This document shows, in pieces, positions 30 to 41,879 of a stretch of 41,879 bases of DNA. Origin of the DNA: an uncultured Acidimicrobiaceae bacterium (GTDB lineage Bacteria > Actinomycetota > Acidimicrobiia > Acidimicrobiales > Bog-793); assembly GCA_903845085.1 (NCBI GenBank), contig CAIMWD010000020.1, positions 1-41,879 of the forward strand, written 5' to 3'. The position numbers were made by a program, and so were the translations under genes. The notes under the pieces are model-generated. The model searched no databases. It was not told where the DNA came from and saw only the letters and a list, made by a program, of their open reading frames with translations. Each line of letters opens with the position of its first letter. The first letter of the stretch is position 1.

Positions 30-847
30 TCAGAAACGCATGAAACTACTGAGATTCTGGCCCCAGGAGGGGTTCGAACATAGTCCCATTACCTCCACCA
101 GGAGACCGTTACTAAAACTAATGTCCTGAAGAAGACCACCATGGTCGGCGCTACGGCTGGCCTTGGTGGTCTTCTTTTGTGGCGCTTGTCGCGCCGACAC
201 GGCCCTTTTCAGTTCCCCTCCGAGCAACGTGTCGAATGGTTCACGGAGCTCGGCCTCAAGGCGAACGTCGCCGAATCCTTCATCATCTTGGATCACCAGC
301 ACCTTCGAGAAGAACGCCTGATTGAACATTCGCTTGATGTGCTCAGGAGCATCTCAGTACGCGGCTCCGCAGTCCACAGTCAGGTCCAGTGCCAGTTGCA
401 GGTTGCGTTCGATGTCTTCGTACTCCGTGCTCGTCGCTTCGAGCTGTGCAGCGATTTTCTGCAAGGCACGACTGATGCGCTCTTGCTCGCGCCCGAGAAG
501 ATCGAGTGGGATCGCTCCGGCGTAGTGGGCCTCCAAGAGCTTCTGGCGCTCACGCTCGAGCTTTTCTTGCTCACGCTTGAGGTCCGCCTGTTCGCTCTCC
601 ACCTGCTTGCGACTCGTGCGGAACTCCTCACGGATCATCGTCTCGACGCTCAGGCGGAAGCTCGAATCAAGTTGCATCCGGTGGTAGTAGTCCTCGAGCT
701 TCTTCTCAACTTCGTAGATCAAGACCGCCCGGAGATTGCATACGGTGCGCTTGGAGTGACGGCCCGCGCAGTAGTAGTACGGGTACTTCATGCCGGTCGC
801 CGAAGTGGAGTGCTGGACCAAGAGTCGCTCACCGCACTGGCCGCAGG
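30..847 (-). pseudogene. Large serine recombinase, C-terminal remnant (zinc ribbon and coiled coil); N-terminus missing, internal stop
   Basis: ORF 354..872 has CGQCG...YYYC...C zinc-ribbon and 'ERQKLLEAHYAGAIPLDLL' coiled-coil signatures. It continues in frame past a single TGA (354-356) as DAPEHIKRMFNQAFF (ORF 30..329). No catalytic resolvase domain is present upstream of CGQCG. Confidence 0.85.
69..100 (+). other. tRNA/tmRNA-3'-like attachment-site sequence inside the recombinase 3' end
   Basis: GGGGTTCGAAcatagTCCCATTACCTCCACCA resembles a T-loop plus ...CTCCACCA acceptor end with a 5-nt interruption; no 5' tRNA half is present. Confidence 0.5.
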
Positions 848-931
848 GTTGGCATCTCCTCGTGGAACTCACAGTGTCCTGCGCCGAGCGCGAGCGCCTG
901 GCGCGGTATCTGATCTACCCGGGTCAGAGAG

Positions 932-967
932 AGCCCCACCTCTCAGTGGCAACCAAGAGGTGGGGCT
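932..967 (-). terminator. Hairpin downstream of katG, probable terminator
   Basis: Perfect 12-bp inverted repeat AGCCCCACCTCT / AGAGGTGGGGCT with 12-nt loop, about 35 nt after the katG stop; no U-tract. Confidence 0.65.
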
Positions 968-1001
968 TCAGCCAACTTGTGCGATCCGCACGAGTGTCTG
1001 T

Positions 1002-3747
<2,746 letters not shown>

Positions 3748-29969: not shown

Positions 29970-30692
29970 TCAGTCGAAGGAGAAGTAGCGGGCCGCGAAA
30001 GCTGGCGCCACGAAGGCCCAGATAGCGAGTGTGATCCAGCCCGATAGCGGTGCCTGACCTCCGGAGAGGAGGGGGTGAAGAATATTGGTCAACGCTCCTG
30101 CGGGAAGGTAACGGGCGACGTTCGCAAAACTCCCTAACTTGCTGAGCGGGAAGACGATGCCACCGATCATGAGCAGGATGACATAGAGGCCATTGACCAA
30201 AGCGAGCGTCGCCTCGGCGCGGAGCGTCCCCGCAAGCGTGAGGCCGATCCCACCGAAGGCGATTGAGGCAAGCGCGAGCGCACCGATTCCCGCAAAGATG
30301 CTCATGCCCGGGTGCCACCCAAGGATCAGCGCCACACCACCAAGAAGAATGACCTGCACAATCTCAATTTCGATGATGGACAAGATCTTGGCCACGATGA
30401 GTGCACGTCGGCCGAGTGGCGTCATCCCAATACGACGGAGCACTCCGTAGCTGCGTTCAAATCCTGTCGAGATACCGAGGCTCACCATCGAACTCGACAT
30501 GATCGCCAGTGCAAGGATCCCCGGTGCGACGAAGGCGATGCCGTGGATTCGCCCCGTCGAGATGATCGAGACCTTACTGGTGAAGAGCAGGAGCAGAAGC
30601 GGGATGCCGAAAGTGACGAGAAGCGACTCTCCCCGTTCCAGCGTCATCCGAAGCTCCGCTGCTGCCTGTGATCGAATCGCACGGAGTCTCAT
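29970..30692 (-). CDS. ABC-2 type permease
   Basis: About six TM segments, GFERSYGVLRR...TPL, GTLRAEATLAL; same ABC-ABC-ctaA context as mycobacterial Rv1458c-Rv1456c. Confidence 0.9.
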   Translation of the reverse strand: MRLRAIRSQAAAELRMTLERGESLLVTFGIPLLLLLFTSKVSIISTGRIHGIAFVAPGILALAIMSSSMVSLGISTGFERSYGVLRRIGMTPLGRRALIVAKILSIIEIEIVQVILLGGVALILGWHPGMSIFAGIGALALASIAFGGIGLTLAGTLRAEATLALVNGLYVILLMIGGIVFPLSKLGSFANVARYLPAGALTNILHPLLSGGQAPLSGWITLAIWAFVAPAFAARYFSFD

Positions 30693-31660
30693 CGAGACCT
30701 CCTTCGACCCCGTGAACCCCGGCCCGTCTCACTTCGCGAGTTCGGCTCCTCCTCAGTCGCAGTCAGCGCAAGGAAGATCTCCTCGAGCGACTGTCCGCCA
30801 GAGGAGAGAGAGGAGAGATCGTGATGGTGCAGTGAGAGCCAGTGACAGATCTGCTCGATCGATCCGTTGAGATCTGCGACGGGGATGCGATAGCGAAGAT
30901 GACCCTCCTCGACAACAGTTAGGCCAAGATCACCGGCCATCTCGTCGATGGCGATTGGCGTATCGGTGGAGAGGTGAATGACGCGGTCCTTTCCACGAAG
31001 CTCGTCGAGGGTGCCGCTTGCGACCACCTCGCCGTCGGCGATAATCACCACACGGTCGGCGAGTCGCTCCGCCTCCTCCAGCTCGTGCGTGGTGAGTACG
31101 ACGGCAACACCATCCTCCCGGAGTTGGGAGATAATGGCACGAACCATGAGGCGCCCGCTGGGGTCGATGCCTGCAGTGGGTTCGTCGAGAAAAACTACCC
31201 GGGGTCGCCCAACGAGGGAGAGTGCGAGGGAGAGTCGTTGGCGCTCACCGCCGGAGAGGCGACGCGCTGGGGTGCGACCGACTTCGACGAGACCCACGGT
31301 CTCCAAGAGCTCGCCGGGGGATCGGGGGTTCTCGTAGTAGTCAGCAAAGAGCCGGAGCGCACGCTCAGGGGAGAGCTGTGGGTAGGTGCCAGAACCCTGC
31401 AACATGACGCCTACGGAGGCGATGAGACGCTTATGATCGTCGACCGGATCGAGGCCAAGGACGCGCACGGTGCCCCTAGTCGGACGGCGAAAGCCCTCCG
31501 TGGTCTCGATGGTGGAGGTCTTGCCGGCGCCGTTGGGACCCAGAAGGGCAACGATCTCACCGGCACCTACGGAGAACGAGACGTCGCGCACGGCCTCCTT
31601 TGCGCCAAAATGCACTGCGAGATTCTCGACTTCAATTGCCGGCATGGTGGGTTCTGGCAT
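30689..31660 (-). CDS. ABC transporter ATP-binding protein
   Basis: GPNGAGKT, LSGGE, FLDEPTAG, TTH; start set at ATG 31660. Confidence 0.93.
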   Translation of the reverse strand: MPEPTMPAIEVENLAVHFGAKEAVRDVSFSVGAGEIVALLGPNGAGKTSTIETTEGFRRPTRGTVRVLGLDPVDDHKRLIASVGVMLQGSGTYPQLSPERALRLFADYYENPRSPGELLETVGLVEVGRTPARRLSGGERQRLSLALSLVGRPRVVFLDEPTAGIDPSGRLMVRAIISQLREDGVAVVLTTHELEEAERLADRVVIIADGEVVASGTLDELRGKDRVIHLSTDTPIAIDEMAGDLGLTVVEEGHLRYRIPVADLNGSIEQICHWLSLHHHDLSSLSSGGQSLEEIFLALTATEEEPNSRSETGRGSRGRRRSR

Positions 31661-31665
31661 GGGTG

Positions 31666-31690
31666 AAAAAAACGGCGCGCTAGTGCGCGC
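31666..31690 (-). terminator. Intrinsic terminator overlapping the regX3 stop
   Basis: Minus strand GCGCGC-ACTA-GCGCGC-CG-TTTTTTT. Confidence 0.55.
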
Positions 31691-32450
31691 GAGGGGATTC
31701 GAACCGGTAACCCAGTCCGCGGATCGTCGTGATAAGTACGGGATTCGCCGGGTCACTCTCGACGCGAGAACGCAGGCGTTTGATATGTACATCAAGTGTC
31801 TTCGTATCACCGACGTAGTCGTAACCCCATACGCGCTCGATGAGGCGTTCACGAGTGACAACGCGACCGGCGTTTGAGATAAGGAGCAGAAGGAGCTCAA
31901 ACTCCTTCAGGGGAAGTCGGATCTCCACACCTCGCACGATGCACTCATGTCGCTCAGGATCCAGGCGGACGTCGCCGACGGTGATTGCCTCGCTCTCCGT
32001 ACCCTCGTTGAGCTCCTCCTCGATCTGGAGGGAGCGGAGGCGCTCCTCCTCCGCGAGCGAGCTACGCCGCAATACCGCACGGATCCTCGAGATCAATTCG
32101 CGGAGACGATAGGGCTTCGCAACGTAGTCATCAGCACCGATCTCTAGGCCCACAACCGTGTCGATCTCGGTTGACTTTGCGGTGACCATGATGATGGGTA
32201 CCGCAGATTTTGCGCGGATCGAGCGGCAGACATCAAGGCCAGTCAATTTGGGAAGCATGACGTCGAGAAGGACGATGTCAAAGTCACCATCGTGAAAGAG
32301 TTCCAGTGCCTCAGCCCCATCCCGAGCGATGGTGACCTTGAAATTCTCTCGCTCAAGTCCGACCGCTAGCGCATCGATGAAGGACTCTTCATCCTCGGCG
32401 ATGAGGACCCGGACGATCTCTTCTGTGGTCACCACTTCTAGGCTAGTCAC
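31680..32450 (-). CDS. regX3: OmpR-family response regulator RegX3
   Basis: AEDEES, LDVMLP, EIDTVVGLEIGADDYV, LPLKEFELL, WGYDYVGDTKTLDVHIKRLR. Confidence 0.92.
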   Translation of the reverse strand: MTSLEVVTTEEIVRVLIAEDEESFIDALAVGLERENFKVTIARDGAEALELFHDGDFDIVLLDVMLPKLTGLDVCRSIRAKSAVPIIMVTAKSTEIDTVVGLEIGADDYVAKPYRLRELISRIRAVLRRSSLAEEERLRSLQIEEELNEGTESEAITVGDVRLDPERHECIVRGVEIRLPLKEFELLLLLISNAGRVVTRERLIERVWGYDYVGDTKTLDVHIKRLRSRVESDPANPVLITTIRGLGYRFESPRAH

Positions 32451-32470: not shown

Positions 32471-33730
32471 TCAGCCGACCTCGCCGCCCGCCTGCAGCGG
32501 GAGATGCAGTAGGAAGGTCGTTCCCTCACCCTCACGAGAATCGACTTCGACGTACCCTTGATGGTTCTGTGCGACATGGCGCACGATAGAGAGGCCAAGT
32601 CCTGTCCCGCCGGTGGCACGGCTTCGACCAGGATCGACGCGGTAGAAACGCTCGAAGATGCGCTCGAGATCGCGGGTCGGAATTCCGACGCCAGCGTCTT
32701 TTACGGAGATCACCACGTCATCTCCCACCACGGACGCACTGACGTGAACCTTCTTATCCGGATAGGAGAACTTCACCGCGTTATCTATCAGGTTAAATAC
32801 TGCGGAGGTCAGCTGCCGGCGATCACCGAGCACGGCAACTGGAGGGTTGGGTTCATTGAGTTCAATGCCGACGCTGCGCTGGTCTGCCGCCTCGCGAACT
32901 CGCTCGGTCGCCTCCGCAAGTACCAGGTTGATCAGGACCGGTTCGCGTGGTGGTGTCGATTCCGATTCGATCCGGGTCAGGTCGAGAAGATCATCGATGA
33001 CGCGCGAGATGCGAAATGCCTCCATGTGAATGCGTTCGGCAAGCCGACGCGAGACCGCCGGCTCTGTCTCGTCAAGCAGTGTCTCTGCAAGAAGCCCCAG
33101 TGCACCCATCGGTGTCTTCATCTCGTGACTGACATTGGCGATAAAGTCGCGCCGCACCTCTTCAAGGCGCCGACGCTCTGAGACGTCCTCAATCACCGCT
33201 GCCACGCCAAGATTTCGCTGGCCATTGTCGATGCTCTTGGTGCTCACGATGAGCGTGCGTCGAGGCGGGCCATAGAGCTCCAAGGTGCGCTCTCCCTCGC
33301 TGCCAAATGTGGTGGAGGCGATGAGCTCATTGACCGCTTGGATAGCGAGAGCATCGCCATGACGGTTGCTCATAAGTTCAATCGCCCGTGCATTTCGAAA
33401 GACATGGTCACCATGTTCATCACAGACAATTACGGCCTGCGGAAGGGTGTCGAGTGCCTTGCGTAGACGAATGGCATCAGAACTTGCATTGGTGACGGCC
33501 TCCGAGGCGCGCTCAGTGGTCTGCTCCAGATAGGTAAGCGCCTCCTCTATATCGTCCGGCTCCTCCGCGAGACTGTCGCCGCCGAGCCGCGAGCCGAGCG
33601 CAATGAGTCGTTGACGAAGGGCATCCGCTCCACGCCGCGAGCCGAAGACATAGGCACCGATCACCGCAAGAAGTGCAACTCCGATACAGATCAGGAGAAC
33701 AGAGAGCGGGATGTGCAGGTCGTGAGACAT
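32471..33730 (-). CDS. senX3: Sensor histidine kinase SenX3
   Basis: RRDFIANVSHEMKTP, NLIDNAVK, RIFERFYRVD..RSRATGGTGLGL; directly upstream of regX3 and near pst genes. Confidence 0.9.
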   Translation of the reverse strand: MSHDLHIPLSVLLICIGVALLAVIGAYVFGSRRGADALRQRLIALGSRLGGDSLAEEPDDIEEALTYLEQTTERASEAVTNASSDAIRLRKALDTLPQAVIVCDEHGDHVFRNARAIELMSNRHGDALAIQAVNELIASTTFGSEGERTLELYGPPRRTLIVSTKSIDNGQRNLGVAAVIEDVSERRRLEEVRRDFIANVSHEMKTPMGALGLLAETLLDETEPAVSRRLAERIHMEAFRISRVIDDLLDLTRIESESTPPREPVLINLVLAEATERVREAADQRSVGIELNEPNPPVAVLGDRRQLTSAVFNLIDNAVKFSYPDKKVHVSASVVGDDVVISVKDAGVGIPTRDLERIFERFYRVDPGRSRATGGTGLGLSIVRHVAQNHQGYVEVDSREGEGTTFLLHLPLQAGGEVG

Positions 33731-33793
33731 TCCATAAGCATGTCAGCTCACCGGAGGAGCTACCGAAATGGAGCGGGTTTTTGACCCGCCCTC

Positions 33794-33822
33794 TTGTCGT
33801 GGTCGCTCTCTCTGCCTAGGAT
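33794..33822 (+). promoter_or_regulatory. Sigma-70-type promoter for the T4SS-like operon
   Basis: TTGTCG-N17-TAGGAT about 105 nt upstream of a GTG start with a GGAGG RBS. Confidence 0.55.
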
Positions 33823-33927
33823 CTCCACGCGCCTGCAAAGACTGCTGTAAGGCGCACCTATCTTGTCGACACTCTCGACCTCTTTCCGCTGCTGCCGTCC
33901 TCTTCGGCACCTTCACTGGAGGTAACT

Positions 33928-34242
33928 GTGTCTTCGATCTACGTGCTATTGCCGCCCTTTCAGTCTTCGGGGCCCGGGCTCAGTCCAAATGCTGCGGGGC
34001 TGCCAGGAAGCGCCACCTTGCAGTCGCTGATCAATGGACTTGCGTGGTGGGCGCTCCTCGCTGCACTCGCAGGTCTGGTGATTGGGGCAGCAACCTGGGC
34101 TCTTGGGTCTCACTCAAACAATTACCAACACGCGTCAACGGGACGTCGGGCAGTTCTGGTCTCTGGCGGCGCCGCGCTGCTTATCGGCGCAGCACCGACG
34201 ATCTTGAACTTCCTCTTCTCTACCGGCCAGTCCTTACATTGA
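33928..34242 (+). CDS. VirB2/TrbC-like pilin (DUF6112-like)
   Basis: 104 aa, two hydrophobic helices, 'PNAAGLPG...WALGSHSNN...GRRAVL...AALLIGAA'; GGAGG RBS. Confidence 0.75.
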   Translation: MSSIYVLLPPFQSSGPGLSPNAAGLPGSATLQSLINGLAWWALLAALAGLVIGAATWALGSHSNNYQHASTGRRAVLVSGGAALLIGAAPTILNFLFSTGQSLH

Positions 34243-35435
34243 GCGCCCCGATGGTCGTTGACCGCCTGCCATATGGCTTCGTCCTTCGCCCAACGACGGG
34301 GATCGGCTCCCTATTTGGATTGAGCGTTCATGGCCTAATGAACGGACTCTTTTCGATCTTTGGCGCGTGGACCGTCAATGGAACGAGGGCACTCCTCACT
34401 GCATTCTCGGTTGTTTTAAATGACACCTCCGGAGTGACATTTGGAACAGGATTTCACACGCTCTATCTCGTTGTGCGCGGTTTTGGCGCGCAGATCGGAG
34501 TGGCGCTTTTGCTAATTGTCACACTGCAAGCGCTCCTGCAGCAAGACCTCGGCCTTCTCACACGGGTGATCTTTGTTCGACTTCCCGCGGCGTTTTTGCT
34601 CTCGGGCGTCGCTGTAGAGGTGGTCGCCGGGCTGCTCGTCGTTAGCGATTCACTCTCTCGCTCGCTTCTGGCGACGGGTCGACAGAGCATCACCTCATTT
34701 CTCTCCGCCCTAGATGGAGTATTTACTGCAGGCTCCATTCTCTCGCCAGCAACAACCGGATTCGAGGGACTCCTTCTCGCTATCGCCCTTGGATTTGTAG
34801 TCTTTCTCTGCTGGCTCGAGCTGGTACTTCGTTCCGCAGCGATCACCATCGTGACGCTCTTCTTGCCGCTCGCATTTGCCGGCGTCATCTGGCCGGCAAC
34901 GCAACAGTGGCTGCGGCGCCTCGCAGAGACGTTGTTCGTATTGATCATCTCCAAAGTCATCATCGCAGGGATCTACGCCCTTGCGCTGGTGAGTTTTGGA
35001 CATGCGACAGGTGCGGCGATGTTGGTGAATGCGATTGCGATCTTCCTCCTCTGTGCGTGGGCTCCCTTCACGCTGTTGCATCTCGTGCCGATCGCGGAGG
35101 GCAGTGCGATGACTCATCTCTCTGGCCTCTCGCAGCGCGCAGCACAGGGAGCGCAGCGAACCGCCAAGAGGGTCGTTCCGATGGCAGCAGATGCGGTTCT
35201 ACCTGAGCCACAGCCAAGTGTTGATGAGGGTGACGATCTCGATTGGGCACCGGTTGATCCAAATGAGATCCTCACCGTTGATCCCGAAGATCGAGAGACA
35301 TTTGCCTTTTTGGAACCATTCGTTCGGGTTCGCGATGAGGAACAGCGCCCACGCGACGCCGATGGCTCACCGCTGCGATTACCGCCCTCGGTCGAGCGCT
35401 ATGGGCCCGGGGAGGAGAGCAACCATGACAGATAA
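34239..35435 (+). CDS. VirB6/TrbL-like polytopic membrane protein
   Basis: 'WLELVLRSAAI...FLPLAFAG.IWP...W.RRL.E.L..LIISKVII' core; start TTG 34239 (overlapping the pilin stop) or ATG 34251. Confidence 0.75.
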   Translation: MSAPMVVDRLPYGFVLRPTTGIGSLFGLSVHGLMNGLFSIFGAWTVNGTRALLTAFSVVLNDTSGVTFGTGFHTLYLVVRGFGAQIGVALLLIVTLQALLQQDLGLLTRVIFVRLPAAFLLSGVAVEVVAGLLVVSDSLSRSLLATGRQSITSFLSALDGVFTAGSILSPATTGFEGLLLAIALGFVVFLCWLELVLRSAAITIVTLFLPLAFAGVIWPATQQWLRRLAETLFVLIISKVIIAGIYALALVSFGHATGAAMLVNAIAIFLLCAWAPFTLLHLVPIAEGSAMTHLSGLSQRAAQGAQRTAKRVVPMAADAVLPEPQPSVDEGDDLDWAPVDPNEILTVDPEDRETFAFLEPFVRVRDEEQRPRDADGSPLRLPPSVERYGPGEESNHDR

Positions 35436-36864
35436 CCGGCGCCACTATTGGTTCGGACCGCGCGATGATCGGGCGCTTCTCGCCGCGCTCGGTCCGCTGC
35501 AACTGGGCGTGATTGGCGCTTCATTGGTGCTTGGCGTCATCGCGCTCCATCTCTTTGCACCACCGGTGGGACTCGAATCGGCTGCTGGTCTCGGCGTGAT
35601 GGGGATGACCCTCTCACTCGGGCGCATCGAAGGGAGGTCGTTGGTGGAGTGGGTCGTGGAGCTCTCGCGGTTCTCACATGCTGGTGTTGTCGGCGAGCGT
35701 CGGATGCTCTATCGGATCCGGACCGGCCTGCGCACCTCACCATCGCCGGCGAAATTCGCGTCGACCGAGTTCGTAGAGGTCACTCACGGCGGTCGATCAA
35801 TAGGAGTGATACTTGATCAACGGAAGCGGATGGTCTCCGGAGTCATCGACGTTGCCGGGACCTCGCTTTCACTCCTCGATAACCAAGAGCGCGAGCGTCT
35901 TTCGATGGCGTGGTCCTCAGTGCTCGCGGCGAGTGCGACGGATCGAAGGACGGTGCGTCTGAAATGGATACATGAGACGGCGCCCGATATCGCGATGAAA
36001 ACTCGCGCATCGGTCATCACCAATATGGCAGGGGTGGCGGACCTGCGCCGCCGCGAGGCGATGGATGCCTATCTCTCGCTGATCGACCAGGTGGGGGGTG
36101 AGCGTCTCGTTACCGAACAGCTCCTGGTCGTGAGTCTTCCCCTCCACTCGCGCTGGCAACCGAGCAACGCGCGCGTCGATCGCACTCCGGTGCCTGAGGG
36201 CCCGTTTCATGATCTTATTGTGCAGCTCGATCTCCTGATGCGGCGACTACATGATGCGGGAATTCCTCCCCGCGGGCCGCTCACACGGGCGCAACTTGAA
36301 GGCGTTACCCAACGACGCTTTCTGCTCACCGGTGTGGCGCAGCGTCGGACTGGGTTGTGGCCTGGCGCAATGGAGGAGCGATGGGAGAGCCTGCGCACCG
36401 ACGAACTCTGGCATGCGACCTTTTGGATTGCGGAGTGGCCTCGAGCCGTGGTCACCTCCGGATTTTTGTTACCACTGCTCAGCGAATCACGGGTCCGCCG
36501 AACGGTCGCGCTCGCCATGTCGCCACTCGCGGTAGATCGCGCGGTCCACCGTGCCGAGCAGCGTCGAACCTCGGCGACAGCGGATGCACAGCTACGCGGT
36601 CGCTATGGGTTTGCACTGAGCTCGCGGCGGCGAGCACAGCACGAAGCGATGACGCGACGAGAGGAGGAGCTCTCGGTCGGTCACCGAGGCTTTGAGTTCT
36701 CCGGATATATCACGGTGTCGGCTGGCTCCCCGCAGGAGCTGGCGGAGGCCTGCGACCAGATAGAACAGTGCGCCTCGGTATGTCACCTCGAGCTCCGGCG
36801 ACTCTATGGAGTCCAGCGTCGCGCCTTCGCCTTTGGGCTCTTAAATGCGCTGGGGTGTCAGTGA
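35425..36864 (+). CDS. PrgI/SCO6880-family protein (VirB3-like TMs plus soluble domain)
   Basis: Y.FGPR, two N-terminal TMs, 'E.W..LRTD..WHATFWIAEWPR', 'REEEL..GH...FSGYITVS', 'LRRLYG.Q'; GAGGAG RBS. Confidence 0.8.
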   Translation: MTDNRRHYWFGPRDDRALLAALGPLQLGVIGASLVLGVIALHLFAPPVGLESAAGLGVMGMTLSLGRIEGRSLVEWVVELSRFSHAGVVGERRMLYRIRTGLRTSPSPAKFASTEFVEVTHGGRSIGVILDQRKRMVSGVIDVAGTSLSLLDNQERERLSMAWSSVLAASATDRRTVRLKWIHETAPDIAMKTRASVITNMAGVADLRRREAMDAYLSLIDQVGGERLVTEQLLVVSLPLHSRWQPSNARVDRTPVPEGPFHDLIVQLDLLMRRLHDAGIPPRGPLTRAQLEGVTQRRFLLTGVAQRRTGLWPGAMEERWESLRTDELWHATFWIAEWPRAVVTSGFLLPLLSESRVRRTVALAMSPLAVDRAVHRAEQRRTSATADAQLRGRYGFALSSRRRAQHEAMTRREEELSVGHRGFEFSGYITVSAGSPQELAEACDQIEQCASVCHLELRRLYGVQRRAFAFGLLNALGCQ

Positions 36865-38135
36865 AGATCCCCGTCCACGAGGCAACCTCACTCCAGCTCG
36901 GTGCGACTTTTCCCTTCGTGACTGGCCCAAAATTGCCGACGCGGCATCTGCTCATCGGCAGAGAGCGATCCGGCGACGATTTCTGCTACGACCCCTTTGC
37001 GCTTTATCAGAGTGGATATCTCACCAATCCAAATATGGTTGTGATGGGGCAGGTGGGGCGGGGAAAGAGTGCATTTGTAAAGAGCTTTCTCTTTCGCAAT
37101 TTTGCCTTGGGCCGACGCATCATTGTGATTGATCCCAAGGGAGAGTACAGCGCCTTGGCCGCACAGATCGGCGCTCGGCGCGTGGTGGTCGCTCCGAATT
37201 CCCCTACCCCAGTGAACCCACTCGGTGATGTCGGTTCGCATGCGACGGGCGAGGAACGAGCGCAGCTCGTTCATCGAAATCTGGCAGTTATCGCTGCACT
37301 TGCGCTTCGACGCGCACTTCGCCCGGAGGAAGAGGTTGCACTGGCCCTTGCACTCAACCGTCTCCTCCAAGGCCGAAGGATGGTTACCCTTCGCGAGGTC
37401 ATCGAGTCACTGCGCGTCCCCACTCTCGACGACGCGAATTCGCTGCATCTAGAACCCGCTGAACTTGCGGAGATCGGCGCTGCCACTGCATATTCTTTCC
37501 AGCGTCTCCTCGGTGGACAATTTGGCACCCTGTTTCACGGCGATGGCGCGCGCATCGCACCTTTTCCCTATCGCTCGCTCGTCTTGGATGTCTCCGCCTT
37601 TTATCGTTCGGATGCGCTCTCGCTTGTGCTTGTAGCGCTGCTCGGTTCCCTCGAGACGCAGCTTCGAGCTGAAGGGGGGATGACGTTATTAGTTGTGGAT
37701 GAGGCGTGGGCCGTTGTCGATGATCCGGTGACCTCCGGATTTCTCCGTGCATTTTTTAAGCTCGCCCGCAGCTTTGGGTTGGCCAATCTTCTGGTCGTCC
37801 ATCGACCCTCTGACCTTGGCGTGCGTCGTAGTGGACTCGGTGCCGCAGATGCGTCAATCGGCGAGGGCCTCGTAGCCGATTGCGAGTCCGCGGTGATCTA
37901 CGCACTGGCACGACCGGAGGCGCGACGAGCACAGCACCTCTTTGGGCTGTCATCGCGAGAGACAGAACTCCTTGCTGGATTAGGTCGCGGAGTTGCTCTG
38001 TGGCGTGTCGGTGAATCACGTTTTCTCGTTCGCCATGAACTCAGCGCCGTGGAGGCAGAGATCATCGACACCGACCAGGCGATGCGCCGTTCGCGCGATG
38101 AGGCGAACCGCGCAGGTCCACGAGAGACGCGATAG
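36861..38135 (+). CDS. VirB4-like ATPase
   Basis: F.YDPF.LY....TNPN, Walker A GQVGRGKS, IDPKGEY, Walker B LLVVDEAW, KLARSFG, DTDQAM; GTGA overlap. Confidence 0.85.
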   Translation: MKIPVHEATSLQLGATFPFVTGPKLPTRHLLIGRERSGDDFCYDPFALYQSGYLTNPNMVVMGQVGRGKSAFVKSFLFRNFALGRRIIVIDPKGEYSALAAQIGARRVVVAPNSPTPVNPLGDVGSHATGEERAQLVHRNLAVIAALALRRALRPEEEVALALALNRLLQGRRMVTLREVIESLRVPTLDDANSLHLEPAELAEIGAATAYSFQRLLGGQFGTLFHGDGARIAPFPYRSLVLDVSAFYRSDALSLVLVALLGSLETQLRAEGGMTLLVVDEAWAVVDDPVTSGFLRAFFKLARSFGLANLLVVHRPSDLGVRRSGLGAADASIGEGLVADCESAVIYALARPEARRAQHLFGLSSRETELLAGLGRGVALWRVGESRFLVRHELSAVEAEIIDTDQAMRRSRDEANRAGPRETR

Positions 38136-38145
38136 GAGGAATTAC

Positions 38146-38589
38146 CTAATTGGTCGGTGCCGATCGCTCGTGCGCGATCTCTGAGGGGAGCCCGGCAGCA
38201 ACCGCTAGACCAACAACAACGGCGCCCGAGGTGGCTGCGAGGATGCCCCAGCGCCAAAACTTCGGCAGGTGAGAGAAGTCTCGGAGGGTAACGGAGGCAT
38301 CGACAAGGTCGGCGCCGGCGCCCAAAAGTAGGAGCTGACGAAGGCGTTTAGGGTCGCGCTCGAGCAGGGTACCGAGTCCTATCGTGATGTCGCGCCCGCC
38401 GAGTGCACGCGCCAAGAGACGCACTGACCCCCGTCTCGCCTCGTCGTCGCCGACCCAGGGTGCCACCGGAAGGCGAGGAGCGAGGATGGCGACGATTCCG
38501 AGTCCGGTACGCGCCACACCGAGGAGGCGTGCGATCGTGGATGCGCCAGCGCCAACACGTCCACAATTGCGTGGGGGATGAATGTTCAT
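38146..38589 (-). CDS. Small membrane protein (DUF4267-like)
   Basis: 'R.GLG...P....W...RALGGRD..IGLG' with 3-4 TMs; TAGAAT 7 nt before the ATG. Confidence 0.65.
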   Translation of the reverse strand: MNIHPPRNCGRVGAGASTIARLLGVARTGLGIVAILAPRLPVAPWVGDDEARRGSVRLLARALGGRDITIGLGTLLERDPKRLRQLLLLGAGADLVDASVTLRDFSHLPKFWRWGILAATSGAVVVGLAVAAGLPSEIAHERSAPTN

Positions 38590-38649
38590 CCCTTAAATTC
38601 TAGGACGCACGCGCGCTGACACTTACATTCGAGGAGGCGGTAACCGTGA

Positions 38650-38695
38650 AAAGCCACTCCGACGTGCAAGTTAAAGCCACTCCGACGTGCAAGTT
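38650..38695. repeat. Perfect 23-bp tandem duplication
   Basis: AAAGCCACTCCGACGTGCAAGTT at 38650-38672 and 38673-38695, followed by AAAG. Confidence 0.95.
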
Positions 38696-38769
38696 AAAGA
38701 AGGTTTCACGTTGAAGTCACCTTCTGTTCATCTCTTCGATGATTAGCGTTTAGCTGCTCCCCGTACGGT
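38693..38769 (+). promoter_or_regulatory. PHO-box-like 11-bp phased repeats and pstB promoter
   Basis: GTTAAAG 38693, TTTCACG 38704, AGTCACC 38715, GTTCATC 38726, GTTTAGC 38748 (actinobacterial unit GTTCACC); TACGGT 38764-38769 then 6 nt to the GTG. Confidence 0.7.
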
Positions 38770-38775
38770 AGCTAT

Positions 38776-39624
38776 GTGACTACAACACCCCCGAAGGAGC
38801 AGACCACGGTGAGTGACCGCCTTGGTGAGCCCTCGAACACGCCGCTGAGCTCAACGGACAATGTAATGAGCGCACGCGATGTCTCGCTTGGATTCGGAGC
38901 GACCACCGTGATGCAGGACATCACCGTCAACTTCCCCCGCGGTTCGATCAATGCACTCGTGGGTCCCTCAGGTTCTGGAAAGACAACCTTTCTTCGATCG
39001 ATGAATCGCTTGAATGACAAGGTGCCAGGGTTTTGGCTCCGGGGCGAGGTGTGCCTCGATGGACACGACCTCAATGGTTCCGACGTCGACCCACTCATTT
39101 TGCGACGCAAGGTCGGTATGGTCTTCCAGCGTCCCAACCCCTTTCCCATGTCGATCATGGACAATGTGGTCGCGGGGGTTCGCGCACACAAGATGGCGAA
39201 GCGCTCCGAACTCCGTGATATCGCAGAGACTCGCCTCGCAGAGGTCGGGCTTTGGAGCCACATCTCCGATCGCCTCGATGATTCCCCCTTCCGGCTTTCG
39301 GGAGGTCAGCAACAGCTTCTTTGCCTCGCGCGCGCCCTTGCTGTGGAGCCCGAGGTCCTCCTCCTAGACGAGCCGACCTCCTCACTCGACCCGCGTTCGA
39401 CCGAGGCGGTTGAGGAGCTCGTTCGCCGGCTGACGCCTGAGCTCACAGTGATCATCGTGACGCACAACCTTGATCAGGCGCGCCGACTCTCGGACAACAC
39501 GATCTTCTTCTATGAGGGTCAACTCATGGAGACCGGTCCTACGCCACAGCTCTTCGATGCTCCCCAACGCCTTGAGACCCAGCGTTATCTCGGCGGGGCA
39601 GTCACCGTGAACGGAGACAACTAG
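38776..39624 (+). CDS. pstB: Phosphate ABC transporter ATP-binding protein
   Basis: GPSGSGKTTFLR.MNR.ND, VGMVFQRPNPFPMSI, LSGGQQQLLCLARALAVEP. Confidence 0.96.
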   Translation: MTTTPPKEQTTVSDRLGEPSNTPLSSTDNVMSARDVSLGFGATTVMQDITVNFPRGSINALVGPSGSGKTTFLRSMNRLNDKVPGFWLRGEVCLDGHDLNGSDVDPLILRRKVGMVFQRPNPFPMSIMDNVVAGVRAHKMAKRSELRDIAETRLAEVGLWSHISDRLDDSPFRLSGGQQQLLCLARALAVEPEVLLLDEPTSSLDPRSTEAVEELVRRLTPELTVIIVTHNLDQARRLSDNTIFFYEGQLMETGPTPQLFDAPQRLETQRYLGGAVTVNGDN

Positions 39625-39749
39625 ACGGGTCGGCTCTTCGATTCCTCTTGAGGTCATCCGCAGTAAAGGCACCACCGATAGATCGAATTACCCCCAACCC
39701 AAAACGCCCATCTGGGCATAACACCTGAAAAGAAGGAGCATCCATTTCA

Positions 39750-40931
39750 ATGAATGCACAATCACCCTTGGAGTCGTCGTTTATGGCACGACTTCGTCGT
39801 ATCAGCATGGCCACCGCCGCCGGCGCCCTTGCGATCTCTGCACTGTCGATTTCGGCAGCGACCGCACAGACAAAGACCGCTCACAAGACTCCAACGCTGA
39901 GCTCGCTTGAGAAGCAGCTCAAGGCATTGGAAGTTCCTGCGAGTTCTTCGACACCATTGTCCGAGGCTGGATCCTCCCTCTTCTACCCACTCGCAGCCGA
40001 ATGGGCACAGAAGTTCCCCTATGCGTCTACCATTCCTGTCACCGCCGCTGCTGGTGGCTCTGGTGCAGGAGTAAGTGGTGCGATCGCGGGCACGACCAAC
40101 ATCGGCGCCTCTGACCCATACCTGCCGGCCTCTGACACCACCGTGGTCAACATTCCAGAGGTTGTCTCTGCGCAGATGGTGAACTACAACATCCCGGGAC
40201 TTTCCACCAAGATTCACTTGAAGTTGAACGCCACGGTTTTGAACCAGATCTATGAGGGAACTATTACCAACTGGGATTCCCCTGCAATCACCGCCTTGAA
40301 CAAGGGTGTGAAGATCCCCTCAACTCCGATCGTGGTAATCCACCGCTCGGATTCAAGTGGTGACACCTTCCTCTTCTCTACCTACCTCAATGCGGGTTAC
40401 AAGCAGAGCTTCCTGCGTACTGCTACCTCGGGTGGACCTCAGAACCTCGTCAACTGGCCTTCAGTTCCAGGCGAGCTGGCGGAGAAGGGCAACACCGGAA
40501 TGTTGCAGGTCTGTGCAACCACCCCTGGTTGTGTCGCCTACATCGGTGTGAGCTACCTCAACTCGGCCGTCACCTCCTCGAATCTCGGTGAGGCACAGCT
40601 CCAGAATGCGAGCGGAAAGTACCTGCTCCCCGTCGCCTCGACGATCAACGCTGAGGTCGCCGGAATGAAGGCAATGCCCGCAAGTGGTGCCGTCAACTTG
40701 ATCTTCCTTCCGAAGGTCGCAAATGGCTACCCGATCGTGAACTTCGAGTACGCCATCGTGCAGCGCGCGCAGTCCTCGGCGACCGTTGCCAAGGCGATTC
40801 AGTCCTTCCTCGCTTGGGGCATGGACCCAACCGGTGGTGCAAGTGCCGCGAACCTCTCGTTCGTTCACTTCCAGCCGCTGCCGGCGAATGCGCTTGCCGT
40901 AGCCGTCAACCTCCTCAAGTCGATTAGCTAA
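39750..40931 (+). CDS. pstS: Phosphate-binding protein
   Basis: AGSSLFYP, GSGAG, GASD, RSDSSGDTF, GN.G, YPIVNFEY; AAGGAG RBS. Confidence 0.93.
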   Translation: MNAQSPLESSFMARLRRISMATAAGALAISALSISAATAQTKTAHKTPTLSSLEKQLKALEVPASSSTPLSEAGSSLFYPLAAEWAQKFPYASTIPVTAAAGGSGAGVSGAIAGTTNIGASDPYLPASDTTVVNIPEVVSAQMVNYNIPGLSTKIHLKLNATVLNQIYEGTITNWDSPAITALNKGVKIPSTPIVVIHRSDSSGDTFLFSTYLNAGYKQSFLRTATSGGPQNLVNWPSVPGELAEKGNTGMLQVCATTPGCVAYIGVSYLNSAVTSSNLGEAQLQNASGKYLLPVASTINAEVAGMKAMPASGAVNLIFLPKVANGYPIVNFEYAIVQRAQSSATVAKAIQSFLAWGMDPTGGASAANLSFVHFQPLPANALAVAVNLLKSIS

Positions 40932-40986
40932 ACGACTTGAACGGAGTGCCGTCGATCCTCTCGCCTCGTGGCGATGACCGTTAGCG

Positions 40987-41016
40987 CAGTGGCCGGGACG
41001 CGAGTCCCGGCCACTG
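40987..41016 (+). other. Stable intercistronic hairpin between pstS and pstC
   Basis: Perfect 13-bp stem CAGTGGCCGGGAC / GTCCCGGCCACTG with GCGA tetraloop; no U-tract. Confidence 0.75.
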
Positions 41017-41128
41017 GTACGCCATTCGGGCGCCGCGCTCTCCGTGAGATACGCGACACTGATACACGAGATCCAGCGCCCTTCACTCTCCATGTTGGGC
41101 GGATCGTTTTAATAATTAGGGAAGTCGG

Positions 41129-41879
41129 ATGAGCATGCATAACGTCGAGGTAACCACCTCGATCTCCTCTCAGAAGACTGGGCTGCGAAAGCTCGCCCAG
41201 CGCGCGATTGTCTATCTGTCGACCGCGACCGCGGTGGTCCCCTTCCTTGGATTGCTCGCGATGGTGGTCATCCTCCTCGTCGAGGCGATCCCTGCCGTGC
41301 GCTACAACGGCTTCTCGTTCTTCACCTCCTCACTATGGTCACCGGGCAACTTCTATGGCACCCCGATACATGATCACGGCGTAGCCCATCTCCCCGGGGC
41401 TCACTTTGGCGCCTGGACCCTTATCGCAGGGACCCTCGAGTCCTCGTTGATTGCGATCATCGTTGGTCTTCCCATCGCGATCGGTGCCGCGGTTCTGCTC
41501 GTCGAGAAGCTCCACCACCGCCTCGCTGCAGGTATAGGTCTCTGTCTGGAGATTCTCGCGGGAGTTCCCAGCGCCGTGATCGGACTCTGGGGCATTATCA
41601 GTTTTGGCCCCTTTCTTGCAAAGCACGTCTATCCGATCCTTGAGAAGATGCCGAATGTTCCCGTGTTGAATTTTTTTCACGGATCCACGGGAACGGTGAG
41701 TGCGACCGGTCAGGGTCTTTTGACCGGCGGACTTGTATTGGCGGCGATGATCATTCCTTTGATCGCCTCGACCGCGCGTGACCTACTTCGCCAGGTTCCC
41801 ACCCTGACTAAAGAGGGCGCAGAGGCATTGGGGCTCACCTCAACGGAGTCCTTTATGACCGTGCAGGCTCGGTGGGCTC
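41129..41879 (+). CDS. pstC: Phosphate ABC transporter permease, truncated by the window edge
   Basis: Translated by hand from ATG 41129: FGAWTLIAGTLESSLIA...LEILAGVPSAVIGLWG...GLVLAAMIIP...EGAEALG. Confidence 0.92.
   Translation, partial: MSMHNVEVTTSISSQKTGLRKLAQRAIVYLSTATAVVPFLGLLAMVVILLVEAIPAVRYNGFSFFTSSLWSPGNFYGTPIHDHGVAHLPGAHFGAWTLIAGTLESSLIAIIVGLPIAIGAAVLLVEKLHHRLAAGIGLCLEILAGVPSAVIGLWGIISFGPFLAKHVYPILEKMPNVPVLNFFHGSTGTVSATGQGLLTGGLVLAAMIIPLIASTARDLLRQVPTLTKEGAEALGLTSTESFMTVQARWA

What the first reader, a model, noticed from the sequence alone, without database searches (positions are those of the whole stretch)
33794..38135. Stand-alone four-gene conjugation-derived module (VirB2-, VirB6-, PrgI/VirB3-, VirB4-like) embedded in the phosphate locus
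Seen: four uninterrupted ORFs, each overlapping the next, with their own sigma-70-like promoter and intact Walker A/B motifs, placed between senX3-regX3 and pstBSC. No relaxase, VirD4/TcpA coupling protein, wall hydrolase, integrase or flanking att repeats are visible nearby. Known: actinobacterial ICEs normally carry those extra genes; domesticated relatives exist (Streptomyces cmd cluster), and the archaeal Ced DNA importer is built from pilin-, VirB6- and VirB4-like parts. Inference: this may be a domesticated chromosomal DNA uptake/exchange or cell-contact machine, possibly scavenging DNA as a phosphate source.
Basis: partly seen in the sequence, partly recalled or inferred. Interest (0 to 1): 0.8.

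Follow-up and report, generated by a model that had tools for sequence, protein, structure and literature searches.

The report
Inherited conjugation-type membrane machine, phosphate locus
A freshwater actinobacterium carries, as a stably inherited part of its chromosome next to its phosphate-sensing genes, a stripped-down version of the machine that plasmids use to pass DNA between cells, which suggests the cell now uses it for a purpose of its own.

Summary
The four genes are real and form a tightly coupled operon: A, a DUF6112 small two-helix protein that is remotely pilin-like; B, a VirB6-like polytopic membrane protein; C and D, a VirB4 ATPase split in two. C is a membrane hairpin plus the VirB4 N-terminal domain (SCO6880 family). 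D is the VirB4 C-terminal ATPase with intact Walker A and B motifs.

The operon is homologous to the core of the Streptomyces cmd cluster. It is not a recent ICE fragment:
- It lies divergent from the same PhoR/SenX3-like kinase in 63 of 66 related loci with enough flank.
- These copies form one clade, and their tree agrees with the kinase tree.
- It is under purifying selection.

"Stand-alone" holds only for the locus:
- 42 of 47 relatives have a fifth operon gene, a membrane-anchored VirD4-type coupling protein, which this genus has lost.
- The genome keeps a soluble coupling-protein-like ATPase and a TrwC relaxase with an intact catalytic motif at a second, equally conserved locus (HU–T4CP–TrwC–PafBC–TypA).

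Best reading: a chromosomally fixed, two-locus, monoderm type IV DNA-translocation system. Its direction, substrate and phosphate control are untested. The sigma-70 promoter was not confirmed.

The parts
33731..33927 (.). Divergent intergenic region between the histidine kinase and gene A. Holds a motif (33737-33747) conserved just upstream of the kinase start in nearly all orthologous loci, and GGAGG 7 nt before A's GTG start.
   Evidence: no consensus sigma-70 promoter
33928..34242 (+). Gene A: 104-aa DUF6112 protein with two predicted transmembrane helices. Remote VirB2/T4SS-pilin-like. The most conserved protein of the operon.
   Evidence: PF19607 E 1.1e-12. Hydropathy helices 34-52 and 75-93. 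11 of 19 orthologues hit PF18895 T4SS_pilin below threshold, best E 7.4e-4. Atlas feature neighbours are TrbC/VirB2 and T4SS_pilin clusters, 0.90-0.92. Keeps 37 of 37 columns that are >=90% conserved in orthologues.
34251..35435 (+). Gene B: 394-aa polytopic membrane protein, VirB6-like (counterpart of cmdD/SCO6881). Alternative TTG start at 34239.
   Evidence: NF047967 E 3.6e-7, 29.6 bits, below the cut-off of 325. Model pLDDT 70. Best Foldseek hits are TrwI/VirB6, E 9.8e-4. VIA Z 13.0, rmsd 4.2, 234 aligned, covering TrwI 2-272.
35425..36864 (+). Gene C: 479-aa SCO6880-family protein. N-terminal membrane hairpin (in the VirB3/PrgI position) plus the VirB4 N-terminal domain.
   Evidence: NF042935 E 1.8e-55, 188.8 bits, cut-off 60. 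Model pLDDT 74. Residues 100-479 align to TrwK/VirB4 residues 8-383, Z 24.5, rmsd 4.8, 332 aligned. Foldseek E 4e-10.
36861..38135 (+). Gene D: 424-aa VirB4 C-terminal ATPase domain (counterpart of cmdB) with intact Walker A and B. Its start overlaps C's stop (GTGA).
   Evidence: DUF87, TraG P-loop and AAA_10. VirB4/TraC/TrbE NCBIfam models, all below equivalog cut-offs. 4ag5_A VirB4 C-terminal domain, E 1.9e-12. Motifs.
32471..33730 (-). PhoR/SenX3-like sensor histidine kinase, divergent from gene A. The conserved syntenic partner of the module.
31680..32450 (-). OmpR/PhoB-family response regulator, downstream of the kinase.
38146..38589 (-). DUF4267-like small membrane protein. It sits where most relatives have the operon's coupling-protein gene followed by this gene.
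   Evidence: PF14087 E 2.6e-5, below cut-off
38650..38695 (.). Perfect 23-nt tandem repeat (2 copies) upstream of pstB. A closely related strain has one copy.
   Evidence: table 4
38776..41878 (+). pstB (38776-39624), pstS (39750-40931) and pstC (41129 to the contig end): high-affinity phosphate uptake genes.

Best explanation
The four genes are the channel-and-motor core of a chromosomally fixed, vertically inherited monoderm-type type IV secretion (T4SS) module of the actinobacterial cmd/SCO6880 kind.

Shown:
- B is a VirB6-like polytopic membrane protein and A a small two-helix, remotely pilin-like protein.
- C and D together are a split VirB4. C supplies a membrane hairpin and the VirB4 N-terminal domain. 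D supplies the RecA-like ATPase domain with intact Walker motifs.
- The four genes are translationally coupled.
- The module entered the phosphate-regulatory locus once, in an ancestor of this acidimicrobial family. It has been inherited with the neighbouring kinase ever since, under purifying selection.
- The ancestral operon had a fifth gene, a membrane-anchored VirD4-type coupling protein. This genus has lost it.
- The genome keeps one soluble coupling-protein-like ATPase and one TrwC relaxase with an intact His-triad/Tyr motif at a second conserved locus (HU | T4CP | TrwC | PafBC | TypA).

Inferred:
- A and B form a cytoplasmic-membrane conduit, on which the C-D ATPase assembles and which it powers.
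- The relaxase nicks a chromosomal site and stays bound to the single strand.
- The soluble T4CP hands that complex to the channel.
- The machine therefore moves the cell's own DNA out of the cell (to a neighbour or into the water).
- Expression may be tied to the divergent phosphate two-component system.
For: Identity:
- Pfam and NCBIfam hits.
- C residues 100-479 match TrwK/VirB4 residues 8-383 with Z 24.5.
- D matches the 4ag5 VirB4 C-terminal domain, E 1.9e-12.
- B's top Foldseek and VIA hits are TrwI/VirB6.
- A is remotely T4SS_pilin-like.

Homology to cmd:
- The cmd paper equates cmdB, cmdC and cmdD with SCO6878, SCO6880 and SCO6881.
- Streptomyces-sized genomes carry C-D-T4CP in the same order.

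Fixation:
- The SCO6880 family is present in 24 of 24 other genomes of the family, 7 of 16 other families of the order, and one copy in the own genome.
- Divergent kinase-A-B-C(-D) synteny holds in 20 of 40 fetched loci. These cover 19 of 24 family genomes; the other 5 are cut by contig ends.
- The kinase lies within 5 kb in 63 of 66 named loci with room.
- 30 of 31 kinase-linked copies form one clade, SH-aLRT 98, apart from plasmid- and ICE-type copies.
- The C and kinase trees of 27 taxa share 18 of 24 bipartitions, including all 15 and all 11 strongly supported ones, with 0 strong conflicts.

Selection:
- NG86 dN/dS is 0.10-0.21 for B, C and D in the two closest pairs.
- The window keeps 37/37, 43/49, 53/58 and 103/116 near-invariant columns of A, B, C and D.
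- Against a ~95%-identical strain, listed differences are 13 synonymous to 5 non-synonymous in B and 4 to 3 in C.

DNA link:
- A T4CP is the fifth gene in 42 of 47 loci with room.
- The own genome has one T4CP and one TrwC.
- The relaxase motif F-H-x2-S-R-x3-P-H-L-H-x-H is invariant and Tyr14 near-invariant in 16 orthologues.
- TrwC lies next to PafBC in 22 of 24 family genomes and in only 1 of 16 other families. That one (G031) is also the only other one with the kinase-linked module.
- Paralogous modules not linked to the kinase usually have a TrwC hit within 3-17 kb, for example G025:C563, G038:C26 and G022:C3.

Assembly:
- Contigs from two other studies bridge D-DUF4267-pstB.
Against: - No experiment or expression data exist. 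No RNA run holds the stretch, so it is unknown whether or when the operon is made.
- The functional link between the two loci rests on co-distribution that reflects one or two evolutionary events, so it is not statistically independent.
- This genus has lost the membrane-anchored coupling protein, and its relaxase lacks the ~300-aa C-terminal extension of its relatives. Its B, C and D sit on a long branch (window C end branch 0.77 against 0.16-0.39 in genus mates). The system may therefore be functionally reduced or repurposed here.
- No TcpC/VirB8-like protein was found in the genome. No wall hydrolase or adhesin lies in the locus. How DNA would cross the wall is unexplained.
- In Streptomyces, cmd deletion affected sporulation and chromosome segregation, and no significant change in SLP2-derived plasmid transfer was found.
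- dS is saturated in most pairs, so those dN/dS values are rough.
- B's structural match (Z 13) is at the level that helical bundles can reach by chance.
Confidence: 0.55

Rival explanations
1. Cmd-like housekeeping role. The module acts inside or at the surface of the cell, in chromosome segregation or partition at division or in envelope organisation, as proposed for Streptomyces CmdABCDEF. It does not move DNA between cells. The T4CP/relaxase locus is unrelated or serves chromosome processing.
For: - The only experimental data on this gene family are cmd deletions, which give aberrant branching, septation and chromosome segregation defects, with no significant difference in transfer of an SLP2-derived plasmid (abstract and sections 5 and 13 of PMC2782261).
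- The operon is retained in a 1.75-Mb streamlined genome and throughout a whole family, as expected of a core cellular function.
- The locus has no adhesin, hydrolase or TcpC-like gene.
Against: - The kinase-linked clade is not placed as sister to the Streptomyces cmd rows in the C tree, so function cannot simply be transferred.
- The organism is presumably unicellular and non-sporulating (recalled, not tested).
- B, C and D evolve 2-4 times faster than neighbouring housekeeping genes, which is unusual for a core division factor.
- Co-distribution with a catalytically intact relaxase fits DNA processing for transfer.
Confidence: 0.2
2. DNA importer. Like archaeal Ced or Helicobacter ComB, the pilin-like, VirB6-like and VirB4 parts take up external DNA. 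The phosphate two-component system induces them, and the DNA serves as a phosphorus source or for repair.
For: - The composition (small two-helix protein, polytopic VirB6-like protein, VirB4-type ATPase) resembles Ced as recalled.
- The conserved divergent arrangement with the PhoR/SenX3-like kinase holds in 63 of 66 loci.
- PhoU or pstB lies downstream in 30 of 47 loci.
- This genus has lost the operon coupling protein, which an importer would not need.
Against: - The CedB model scores 17.9 bits against a cut-off of 700.
- The ancestral operon includes a VirD4-type coupling protein, and the system co-occurs with a relaxase. Both belong to export-type conjugation.
- No shared regulatory motif was found between the A and pst upstream regions. 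The one conserved motif is unique in the window.
- Gene neighbourhood alone does not show co-regulation.
Confidence: 0.1
3. Protein secretion or cell-contact device. The module exports a protein or effector, or mediates contact, rather than moving DNA.
For: - T4SSs have repeatedly been adapted for protein delivery. A chromosomal monoderm T4SS is essential in Patescibacteria for unknown reasons (passages of the review PMC12857230).
- The fast evolution of B, C and D would fit a surface or conflict role.
Against: - No candidate effector, immunity or adhesin gene lies in the operon or its conserved flanks.
- The module co-distributes with a relaxase.
Confidence: 0.07
4. Decaying remnant of an integrative conjugative element (ICE) that happens to persist, without function.
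For: - In this genus the module lacks the coupling protein.
- A Streptomyces population study classed a conserved mid-chromosome element as a defective ICE (passage of PMC9513070).
- The window's C sits on a long branch.
Against: - All four frames are intact in every locus examined.
- The module has a single origin and co-inherits with the kinase.
- dN/dS is well below 1.
- Near-invariant columns and Walker motifs are kept.
- The module is retained in a 1.75-Mb genome.
- No integrase, att repeats or GC deviation were found.
Confidence: 0.03

Closest known systems
Streptomyces coelicolor cmdABCDEF (SCO4126-4131) and its paralogue cluster SCO6871-6884
   Same: - Shared protein families: an SCO6880-family protein (cmdC), a VirB4-like ATPase (cmdB), and an SCO6881-like polytopic protein (cmdD, weak match here).
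- Chromosomal, and conserved across a whole taxon.
- In three Streptomyces-sized genomes the order is C-D-T4CP, as in the acidimicrobial ancestral operon, and pstSCAB lies 11-16 kb away.
   Different: - The window has four genes and lacks the T4CP-like last gene.
- It is directly wedged between a PhoR/SenX3-like two-component system and pstBSC.
- In the C tree the kinase-linked clade is not sister to the Streptomyces rows, so the two may be independent fixations.
- The host has a small genome, and no sporulation phenotype can apply.
- A conserved second locus with a relaxase is not described for cmd in the sections I read.
Monoderm conjugative T4SS of the MPF-FATA/FA classes (e.g. pCF10 PrgF-PrgH-PrgI-PrgJ with PcfC) and actinobacterial plasmid/ICE modules (SLP2.21-23, Iamia and Arthrobacter plasmids)
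   Same: - Same core and order: a small membrane protein, a VirB6-like protein, a VirB3-like hairpin, VirB4, then VirD4.
- Passages of PMC4027160 name PrgF, PrgH and PrgI as the shared core.
- 73 plasmid records hold SCO6880-family genes.
   Different: - VirB4 is split, and its N-terminal half is fused to the VirB3-like hairpin.
- No integrase, replication or excision genes, and no VirB1-like or VirB8/TcpC-like gene was found.
- The relaxase and the remaining T4CP are encoded at a separate, fixed locus.
- Inheritance is vertical rather than patchy.
Patescibacteria chromosomal T4SS
   Same: A monoderm conjugation-derived T4SS that is chromosomal, widespread in a lineage of small-genome bacteria, and includes a pilin-like component (passages of PMC12857230; search listing and abstract of PMC12102498).
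   Different: - That system has VirB1-, VirB8- and VirD4-like parts in one locus and belongs to epibionts that depend on a host.
- No sequence comparison with it was made here.
Archaeal Ced DNA import system (recalled, not read here)
   Same: A minimal set of small two-helix proteins, a polytopic VirB6-like protein and a VirB4/HerA-type ATPase, chromosomal and not part of a mobile element.
   Different: - The CedB model scores far below threshold.
- The system here keeps a relaxase, and ancestrally a coupling protein, which an importer does not need.

Membership tests
SCO6880/cmd-type actinobacterial T4SS-like cluster | SCO6880-family protein (cmdC homologue) | tested here: met
   NF042935 188.8 bits, cut-off 60, covering model positions 2-473 of 477
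SCO6880/cmd-type actinobacterial T4SS-like cluster | Adjacent VirB4-like ATP-binding protein (cmdB homologue) with Walker motifs | tested here: met
   Gene D directly follows C with a GTGA overlap. Walker A and B are present.
SCO6880/cmd-type actinobacterial T4SS-like cluster | SCO6881-family polytopic membrane protein (cmdD homologue) | tested here: inconclusive
   NF047967 29.6 bits against a cut-off of 325, though the alignment spans model positions 57-326 of 329
SCO6880/cmd-type actinobacterial T4SS-like cluster | T4CP-like last gene of the operon (position of cmdA) | tested here: not met
   Absent from the window: D is followed by DUF4267 (-) and pstB. Present in 42 of 47 related loci with room.
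Integrative conjugative element (ICE) / conjugative T4SS | VirB4 ATPase | tested here: met
   C plus D make a split VirB4. No VirB4 equivalog model reaches its cut-off.
Integrative conjugative element (ICE) / conjugative T4SS | Relaxase and coupling protein in the same element | tested here: not met
   None in the 41.9-kb contig. The genome's single T4CP and TrwC lie on contig C15 between HU and PafBC.
Integrative conjugative element (ICE) / conjugative T4SS | Integrase or excision module and flanking att repeats | tested here: not met
   No integrase among the 34 main ORFs. No bracketing direct repeats. The nearest tRNA is 7 kb away.
Integrative conjugative element (ICE) / conjugative T4SS | Patchy, horizontally transferred distribution | tested here: not met
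   Present in 24 of 24 family genomes. Single clade. Tree congruent with the kinase tree.
Integrative conjugative element (ICE) / conjugative T4SS | VirB8/TcpC-like and VirB1-like wall-crossing parts | tested here: inconclusive
   PF12642 was not found in the 96.5%-complete genome. Hydrolases were not searched.
VirB6 | Polytopic inner-membrane fold of TrwI/VirB6 | tested here: inconclusive
   Top hits in both searches are TrwI (Foldseek E 9.8e-4; VIA Z 13.0, 234 aligned). That Z is within the range helical bundles reach by chance.
VirB2/T4SS pilin (PF18895, PF04956) | Match to the pilin profiles | tested here: inconclusive
   The window protein matches only DUF6112. 11 of 19 orthologues match PF18895 (best E 7.4e-4) and 1 matches TrbC (E 0.01). 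Atlas neighbours score 0.90-0.92.
Ced DNA import system | CedB ATPase | tested here: not met
   NF041017 17.9 bits against a cut-off of 700
Ced DNA import system | CedA, CedA1 and CedA2 membrane proteins | not tested
   No model or sequence of them was used

The most novel reading that the evidence does not exclude
A whole family of free-living freshwater and soil Acidimicrobiales carries a built-in, vertically inherited conjugation apparatus split over two chromosomal loci. The channel and motor sit in the phosphate-regulatory locus. A relaxase and a soluble coupling ATPase sit beside pafBC. The relaxase nicks a chromosomal oriT, so the chromosome itself is the transferred or released substrate: a constitutive Hfr-like or Neisseria-GGI-like system without any mobile element. 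Output may be gated by phosphate status. The genus in the window would be a naturally minimised version that works without the membrane-anchored coupling protein.
Probability: 0.15. Interest if true: 0.85.

Novelty: new variant of a known kind. Interest (0 to 1): 0.6.

Why it matters
- The cmd/SCO6880-type clusters are the least understood T4SS relatives. The 2025 T4SS review I searched never uses the word Actinomycetota, uses Actinobacteria once (only as host cells of Saccharibacteria), and the Streptomyces passages shown concern TraB-type transfer.
- This report gives a structural reading of the SCO6880 family: a VirB3-like hairpin plus the VirB4 N-terminal domain, i.e. a split VirB4.
- It shows that one such module has been fixed and co-inherited with a phosphate two-component system across a bacterial family.
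- It shows that a relaxase and coupling-protein pair was fixed at a second locus in the same lineages.
- If the system moves chromosomal DNA, it would be a mobile-element-free route of gene exchange or DNA release in abundant, streamlined freshwater Actinomycetota. The natural loss of the coupling protein in one genus would then define the minimal working set.
- It also offers a comparative handle on the unresolved function of Streptomyces cmd.

Tried and rejected
- **Sigma-70 promoter:** 0 found in 33500-38900. The promoter claim was dropped.
- **Pho-box-like motif shared between the A and pstB/pstS upstream regions:** none recognised by eye. The conserved kinase-proximal motif has a single exact hit in the window, against 10.6 one-mismatch hits expected by chance, so it is not a general box.
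- **oriT-like inverted repeat in the HU-T4CP spacer of C15:** only one 12-nt, 83% pair. Not informative.
- **Expression:** no RNA holder listed among 16 runs.
- **Deep ancestry shared with Streptomyces cmd next to pst:** pstSCAB lies 11-16 kb from the cmd-like operon in 3 of 3 large genomes examined. The C tree does not place those rows as sister to the kinase-linked clade, and they sit on a 2.29 branch. Left unresolved, not claimed.
- **PDB profile search with A:** no meaningful hit.
- **Plasmid comparison:** plasmid copies are only 23-31% identical. The Iamia plasmid locus carries a T4CP about 8 kb from its SCO6880 gene. Useful as contrast only.
- **Complex prediction:** not used. A C-D pass would only reflect likeness to solved VirB4.
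- **Correction:** my notebook entry 2 says 8 of 16 other families; the correct count is 7 of 16.

Full report
**1. What is in the sequence**

Between 33.9 and 38.1 kb the + strand carries four genes.
- A: 33928-34242, 104 aa. It has a GTG start with GGAGG 7 nt upstream.
- B: 34251-35435, 394 aa. A TTG at 34239 would overlap A's stop.
- C: 35425-36864, 479 aa. It overlaps B by 11 nt.
- D: 36861-38135, 424 aa. Its GTG overlaps C's TGA.

The longer ORFs that the ORF listing reports (33768-35435, 35191-36864, 36768-38135) are 5' over-extensions. In orthologous loci the C stop and D start overlap in the same way, so translational coupling is conserved.

The neighbours are as follows.
- To the left, on the - strand, lie a PhoR/SenX3-like histidine kinase and an OmpR-family response regulator.
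- To the right lie a small DUF4267-like gene on the - strand and then pstB, pstS and pstC.
- The rest of the contig is housekeeping: katG, fur, recCBD, prpD, purF, a Dam-type methylase, ctaA and an ABC-2 exporter.
- It has no integrase, relaxase or coupling protein.
- The tRNAs lie at 19.8 and 26.6 kb.
- No direct repeats bracket the module.
- GC content is unremarkable.

The consensus scan found no sigma-70-like promoter in 33500-38900.

**2. What the four proteins are**

*A* is a DUF6112 protein (PF19607, E 1.1e-12) with two hydrophobic helices.
- 11 of 19 orthologues give sub-threshold matches to PF18895 T4SS_pilin (best E 7.4e-4), and 1 matches TrbC.
- Its language-model neighbours are TrbC/VirB2 and T4SS_pilin clusters of Actinomycetota, scoring 0.90-0.92.
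- "VirB2-like" is therefore a reasonable but unproven remote relationship.

*B* matches the SCO6881 model only weakly (29.6 bits, cut-off 325).
- An AlphaFold model from 14 orthologues (pLDDT 70) has TrwI/VirB6 of R388 as its top hits. Foldseek gives E 9.8e-4. VIA-align gives Z 13.0, rmsd 4.2, 234 residues aligned over TrwI 2-272.
- That Z is borderline for a helical bundle. The match is full-length, ranks first in both searches and fits the gene context.

*C* is a clear SCO6880-family protein (188.8 bits, cut-off 60).
- Its model (17 orthologues, pLDDT 74, pTM 0.71) has two N-terminal helices (24-43 and 48-65).
- Residues 100-479 superpose on residues 8-383 of TrwK/VirB4 (Z 24.5, rmsd 4.8, 332 aligned; Foldseek E 4e-10).

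*D* is the VirB4 C-terminal ATPase domain.
- It matches 4ag5_A with E 1.9e-12.
- It hits DUF87, TraG P-loop and AAA_10.
- Its Walker A is GQVGRGKS and its Walker B is LLVVDE.

C and D together are thus a split VirB4 whose N-terminal half carries a hairpin in the VirB3/PrgI position. The order A-B-C-D mirrors the PrgF-PrgH-PrgI-PrgJ core of monoderm T4SS (passages of PMC4027160).

**3. Relation to cmd and to mobile elements**

- It also states that SLP2 plasmid transfer genes resemble SCO4127-4129.
- Deleting cmd disturbs sporulation and chromosome segregation, and the authors found no significant difference in transfer of an SLP2-derived plasmid.
- In a phylum sample the SCO6880 family occurs in 53 of 301 genomes, including 9 of 9 genomes of a family with 7-10 Mb genomes. 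These tallies include four unpublished genomes: G041, G088, G291 and G185.
- In three of those large genomes the conserved copy is followed by the ATPase. A T4CP-like hit follows in two of the three, and pstSCAB lies 11-16 kb upstream.
- 73 plasmid records also hold SCO6880-family genes, at 23-31% identity.

**4. The module is inherited, not recently acquired**

- The family model hits 24 of 24 other genomes of the same family and 7 of 16 other families of the order. The own genome (1.75 Mb, 96.5% complete) has one copy.
- Of 40 fetched loci, 20 show response regulator-kinase divergent from A-B-C(-D). These cover 19 of the 24 family genomes plus G031 of another family.
- The other five family genomes are cut by contig ends. 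No contradictory arrangement of the best copy was seen.
- In 80 named Acidimicrobiales MAG loci, which partly overlap the same genomes, the divergent kinase lies within 5 kb in 63 of 66 with room.
- In a tree of 60 C homologues, 30 of 31 kinase-linked rows (plus L192) form one clade with SH-aLRT 98. Copies not linked to the kinase group with an Iamia plasmid copy and other phylum rows.
- Trees of C and of the kinase for 27 taxa share 18 of 24 bipartitions. All 15 and all 11 strongly supported ones are shared, and there are no strong conflicts.
- Contigs from two other studies bridge D-DUF4267-pstB, and one bridges kinase-A-B, so the arrangement is not an assembly artefact.

**5. Selection**

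- B, C and D diverge much faster than their neighbours. Within the genus they are 42-50% identical, against 74-88% for the kinase, the regulator and PstB, and 78% for A.
- They are nevertheless constrained. NG86 dN/dS in the two closest pairs is 0.10-0.21 for B, C and D, against 0.03-0.12 for the kinase. dS is saturated in most other pairs.
- The window keeps 37/37 (A), 43/49 (B), 53/58 (C) and 103/116 (D) of the columns that are at least 90% conserved in the orthologues.
- Against a ~95%-identical strain (run X6), the listed differences are 13 synonymous to 5 non-synonymous in B, 4 to 3 in C, and 12 to 0 in pstB. Only 37 coding differences among the 40 listed (of 265) could be classified.
- The window's C sits on a long end branch (0.77, against 0.16-0.39 in genus mates).

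**6. "Stand-alone" is true only of the locus**

- In 42 of 47 related loci with at least 5 kb downstream of D, the next gene is a VirD4-type coupling protein. It matches PF02534, PF12696 and PF10412, is 580-718 aa long, and has two N-terminal transmembrane helices.
- After it come PhoU (19 loci) or pstB (12 loci), one or the other in 30 of the 47.
- The window's genus (G001, G003, G004 and the window itself) lacks this gene.
- Genome-wide, the organism has exactly one T4CP match and one TrwC relaxase match, and no PF03432 relaxase.
- Both lie on the 7.2-kb contig C15 in the order HU | T4CP | TrwC | PafB-PafC fusion | TypA.
- This T4CP has Walker A and B motifs but no convincing membrane helix.
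- The relaxase keeps the invariant His-triad motif and a near-invariant Tyr14 across 16 orthologues. In this genus it lacks the ~300-residue C-terminal extension.
- The T4CP-TrwC-PafBC arrangement recurs in 14 of 20 fetched loci, 12 of the 20 also with HU.
- TrwC lies within about 0.5 kb of PafBC in 22 of 24 family genomes. G007 has it 17.7 kb away, and G021 is split over contigs.
- TrwC lies next to PafBC in only 1 of 16 other families (G031). G031 is also the only other family with the kinase-linked module.
- The paralogous modules not linked to the kinase usually have a TrwC hit 3-17 kb away. This module type is therefore normally used with TrwC relaxases in mobile elements.

**7. Interpretation**

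Shown:
- This is a T4SS-derived channel-and-motor module of the cmd/SCO6880 kind.
- It was fixed once in the phosphate-regulatory locus of an acidimicrobial ancestor and inherited vertically under purifying selection.
- A relaxase and coupling-ATPase pair is fixed at a second locus in the same lineages.

Inferred:
- The two loci work together to process and move the cell's own DNA.
- The divergent phosphate two-component system controls the operon.
- Export is favoured over import, because a relaxase, and ancestrally a VirD4, are retained. The direction remains untested.

Main rivals:
- A cmd-like intracellular role, supported by the only experimental data for this gene family.
- DNA import, a protein-secretion or cell-contact role, and a decaying ICE remnant are weighed in the rival explanations above.

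Points that weaken a full conjugation model:
- No TcpC/VirB8-like protein was found.
- No hydrolase or adhesin lies in the locus.
- The membrane-anchored T4CP has been lost in this genus.

**8. Novelty**

- Full-text searches found no paper combining Acidimicrobiia with VirB4, or Acidimicrobiales with type IV secretion and relaxase.
- DUF6112 appears in one unrelated preprint (search listing only).
- In the listing, the only paper showing SCO6880, SCO4127 or SCO4128 was the cmd paper. That search listed 20 of 374 hits.
- The 2025 T4SS review never uses Actinomycetota and uses Actinobacteria once, only as host cells of Saccharibacteria (passages).
- A Streptomyces population study mentions a defective ICE in mid-chromosome of all strains (passage).
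- Subscription-only papers and supplements were not seen.
- I class this as a new variant of a known kind.

Noticed in passing
window 35425-36864 (protein C): The SCO6880-family model also superposes on EccE of the mycobacterial ESX-3 type VII secretion system (6umm_A, Z 16.6, rmsd 4.8, 272 aligned, model residues 23-479). Pfam EccE gives a sub-threshold hit (E 2.7e-4). EccE may share the membrane hairpin plus VirB4 N-terminal-domain architecture, which would link type VII and type IV machinery in Actinomycetota.
   Followed up: partly
G000 contig C15 (locus L074) 552-3274: A second conserved conjugation-derived locus: a soluble T4CP-like ATPase and a 444-aa TrwC relaxase, convergent and 2 nt apart, between HU and a PafB-PafC fusion, followed by TypA. 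The arrangement is syntenic across the family.
   Followed up: yes
window 38650-38695: A perfect 23-nt tandem duplication upstream of pstB, followed by several GT(T)CAC-like hexamers. A ~95%-identical strain (run X6) carries only one copy.
   Followed up: partly
window 33737-33747: A motif AGCAT(G/T)(T/G)CAGC about 10 nt upstream of the kinase start codon is conserved in nearly all orthologous loci, while the rest of the spacer is not. It is unique in the window and may be an autoregulatory or leader element of the kinase operon.
   Followed up: partly
window 33840-33900 and loci L031, L032, L034: Within the genus, the region upstream of gene A holds repeated (T)GTCGAC / TCGACCTC-like words spaced about 11-14 nt apart. 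They could be response-regulator half-sites. They were not seen outside the genus.
   Followed up: no
L136 14570-15460; L125-L204: In many relatives PhoU, on the same strand as the kinase, follows the five-gene operon. The module looks like an ancient insertion between phoU and the kinase/regulator genes.
   Followed up: partly
L236-L241 (three 7-9 Mb genomes of the phylum sample): The conserved cmd-like operon lies 11-16 kb downstream of pstSCAB in all three. Whether this reflects ancient linkage with the phosphate locus or coincidence is open. The C tree does not support orthology with the acidimicrobial clade.
   Followed up: partly
window 30689-31900 and 29970-30692: A DrrA-type ABC ATPase and an ABC-2 permease lie downstream of the response regulator on the - strand and are syntenic with it in most relatives. 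The ATPase ORF as listed overlaps the regulator by 220 nt, so its true start is probably further downstream.
   Followed up: no
window 3906-12626: A complete recC-recB-recD operon lies next to fur and katG. This is ordinary, but relevant if the cell handles linear or incoming DNA.
   Followed up: no
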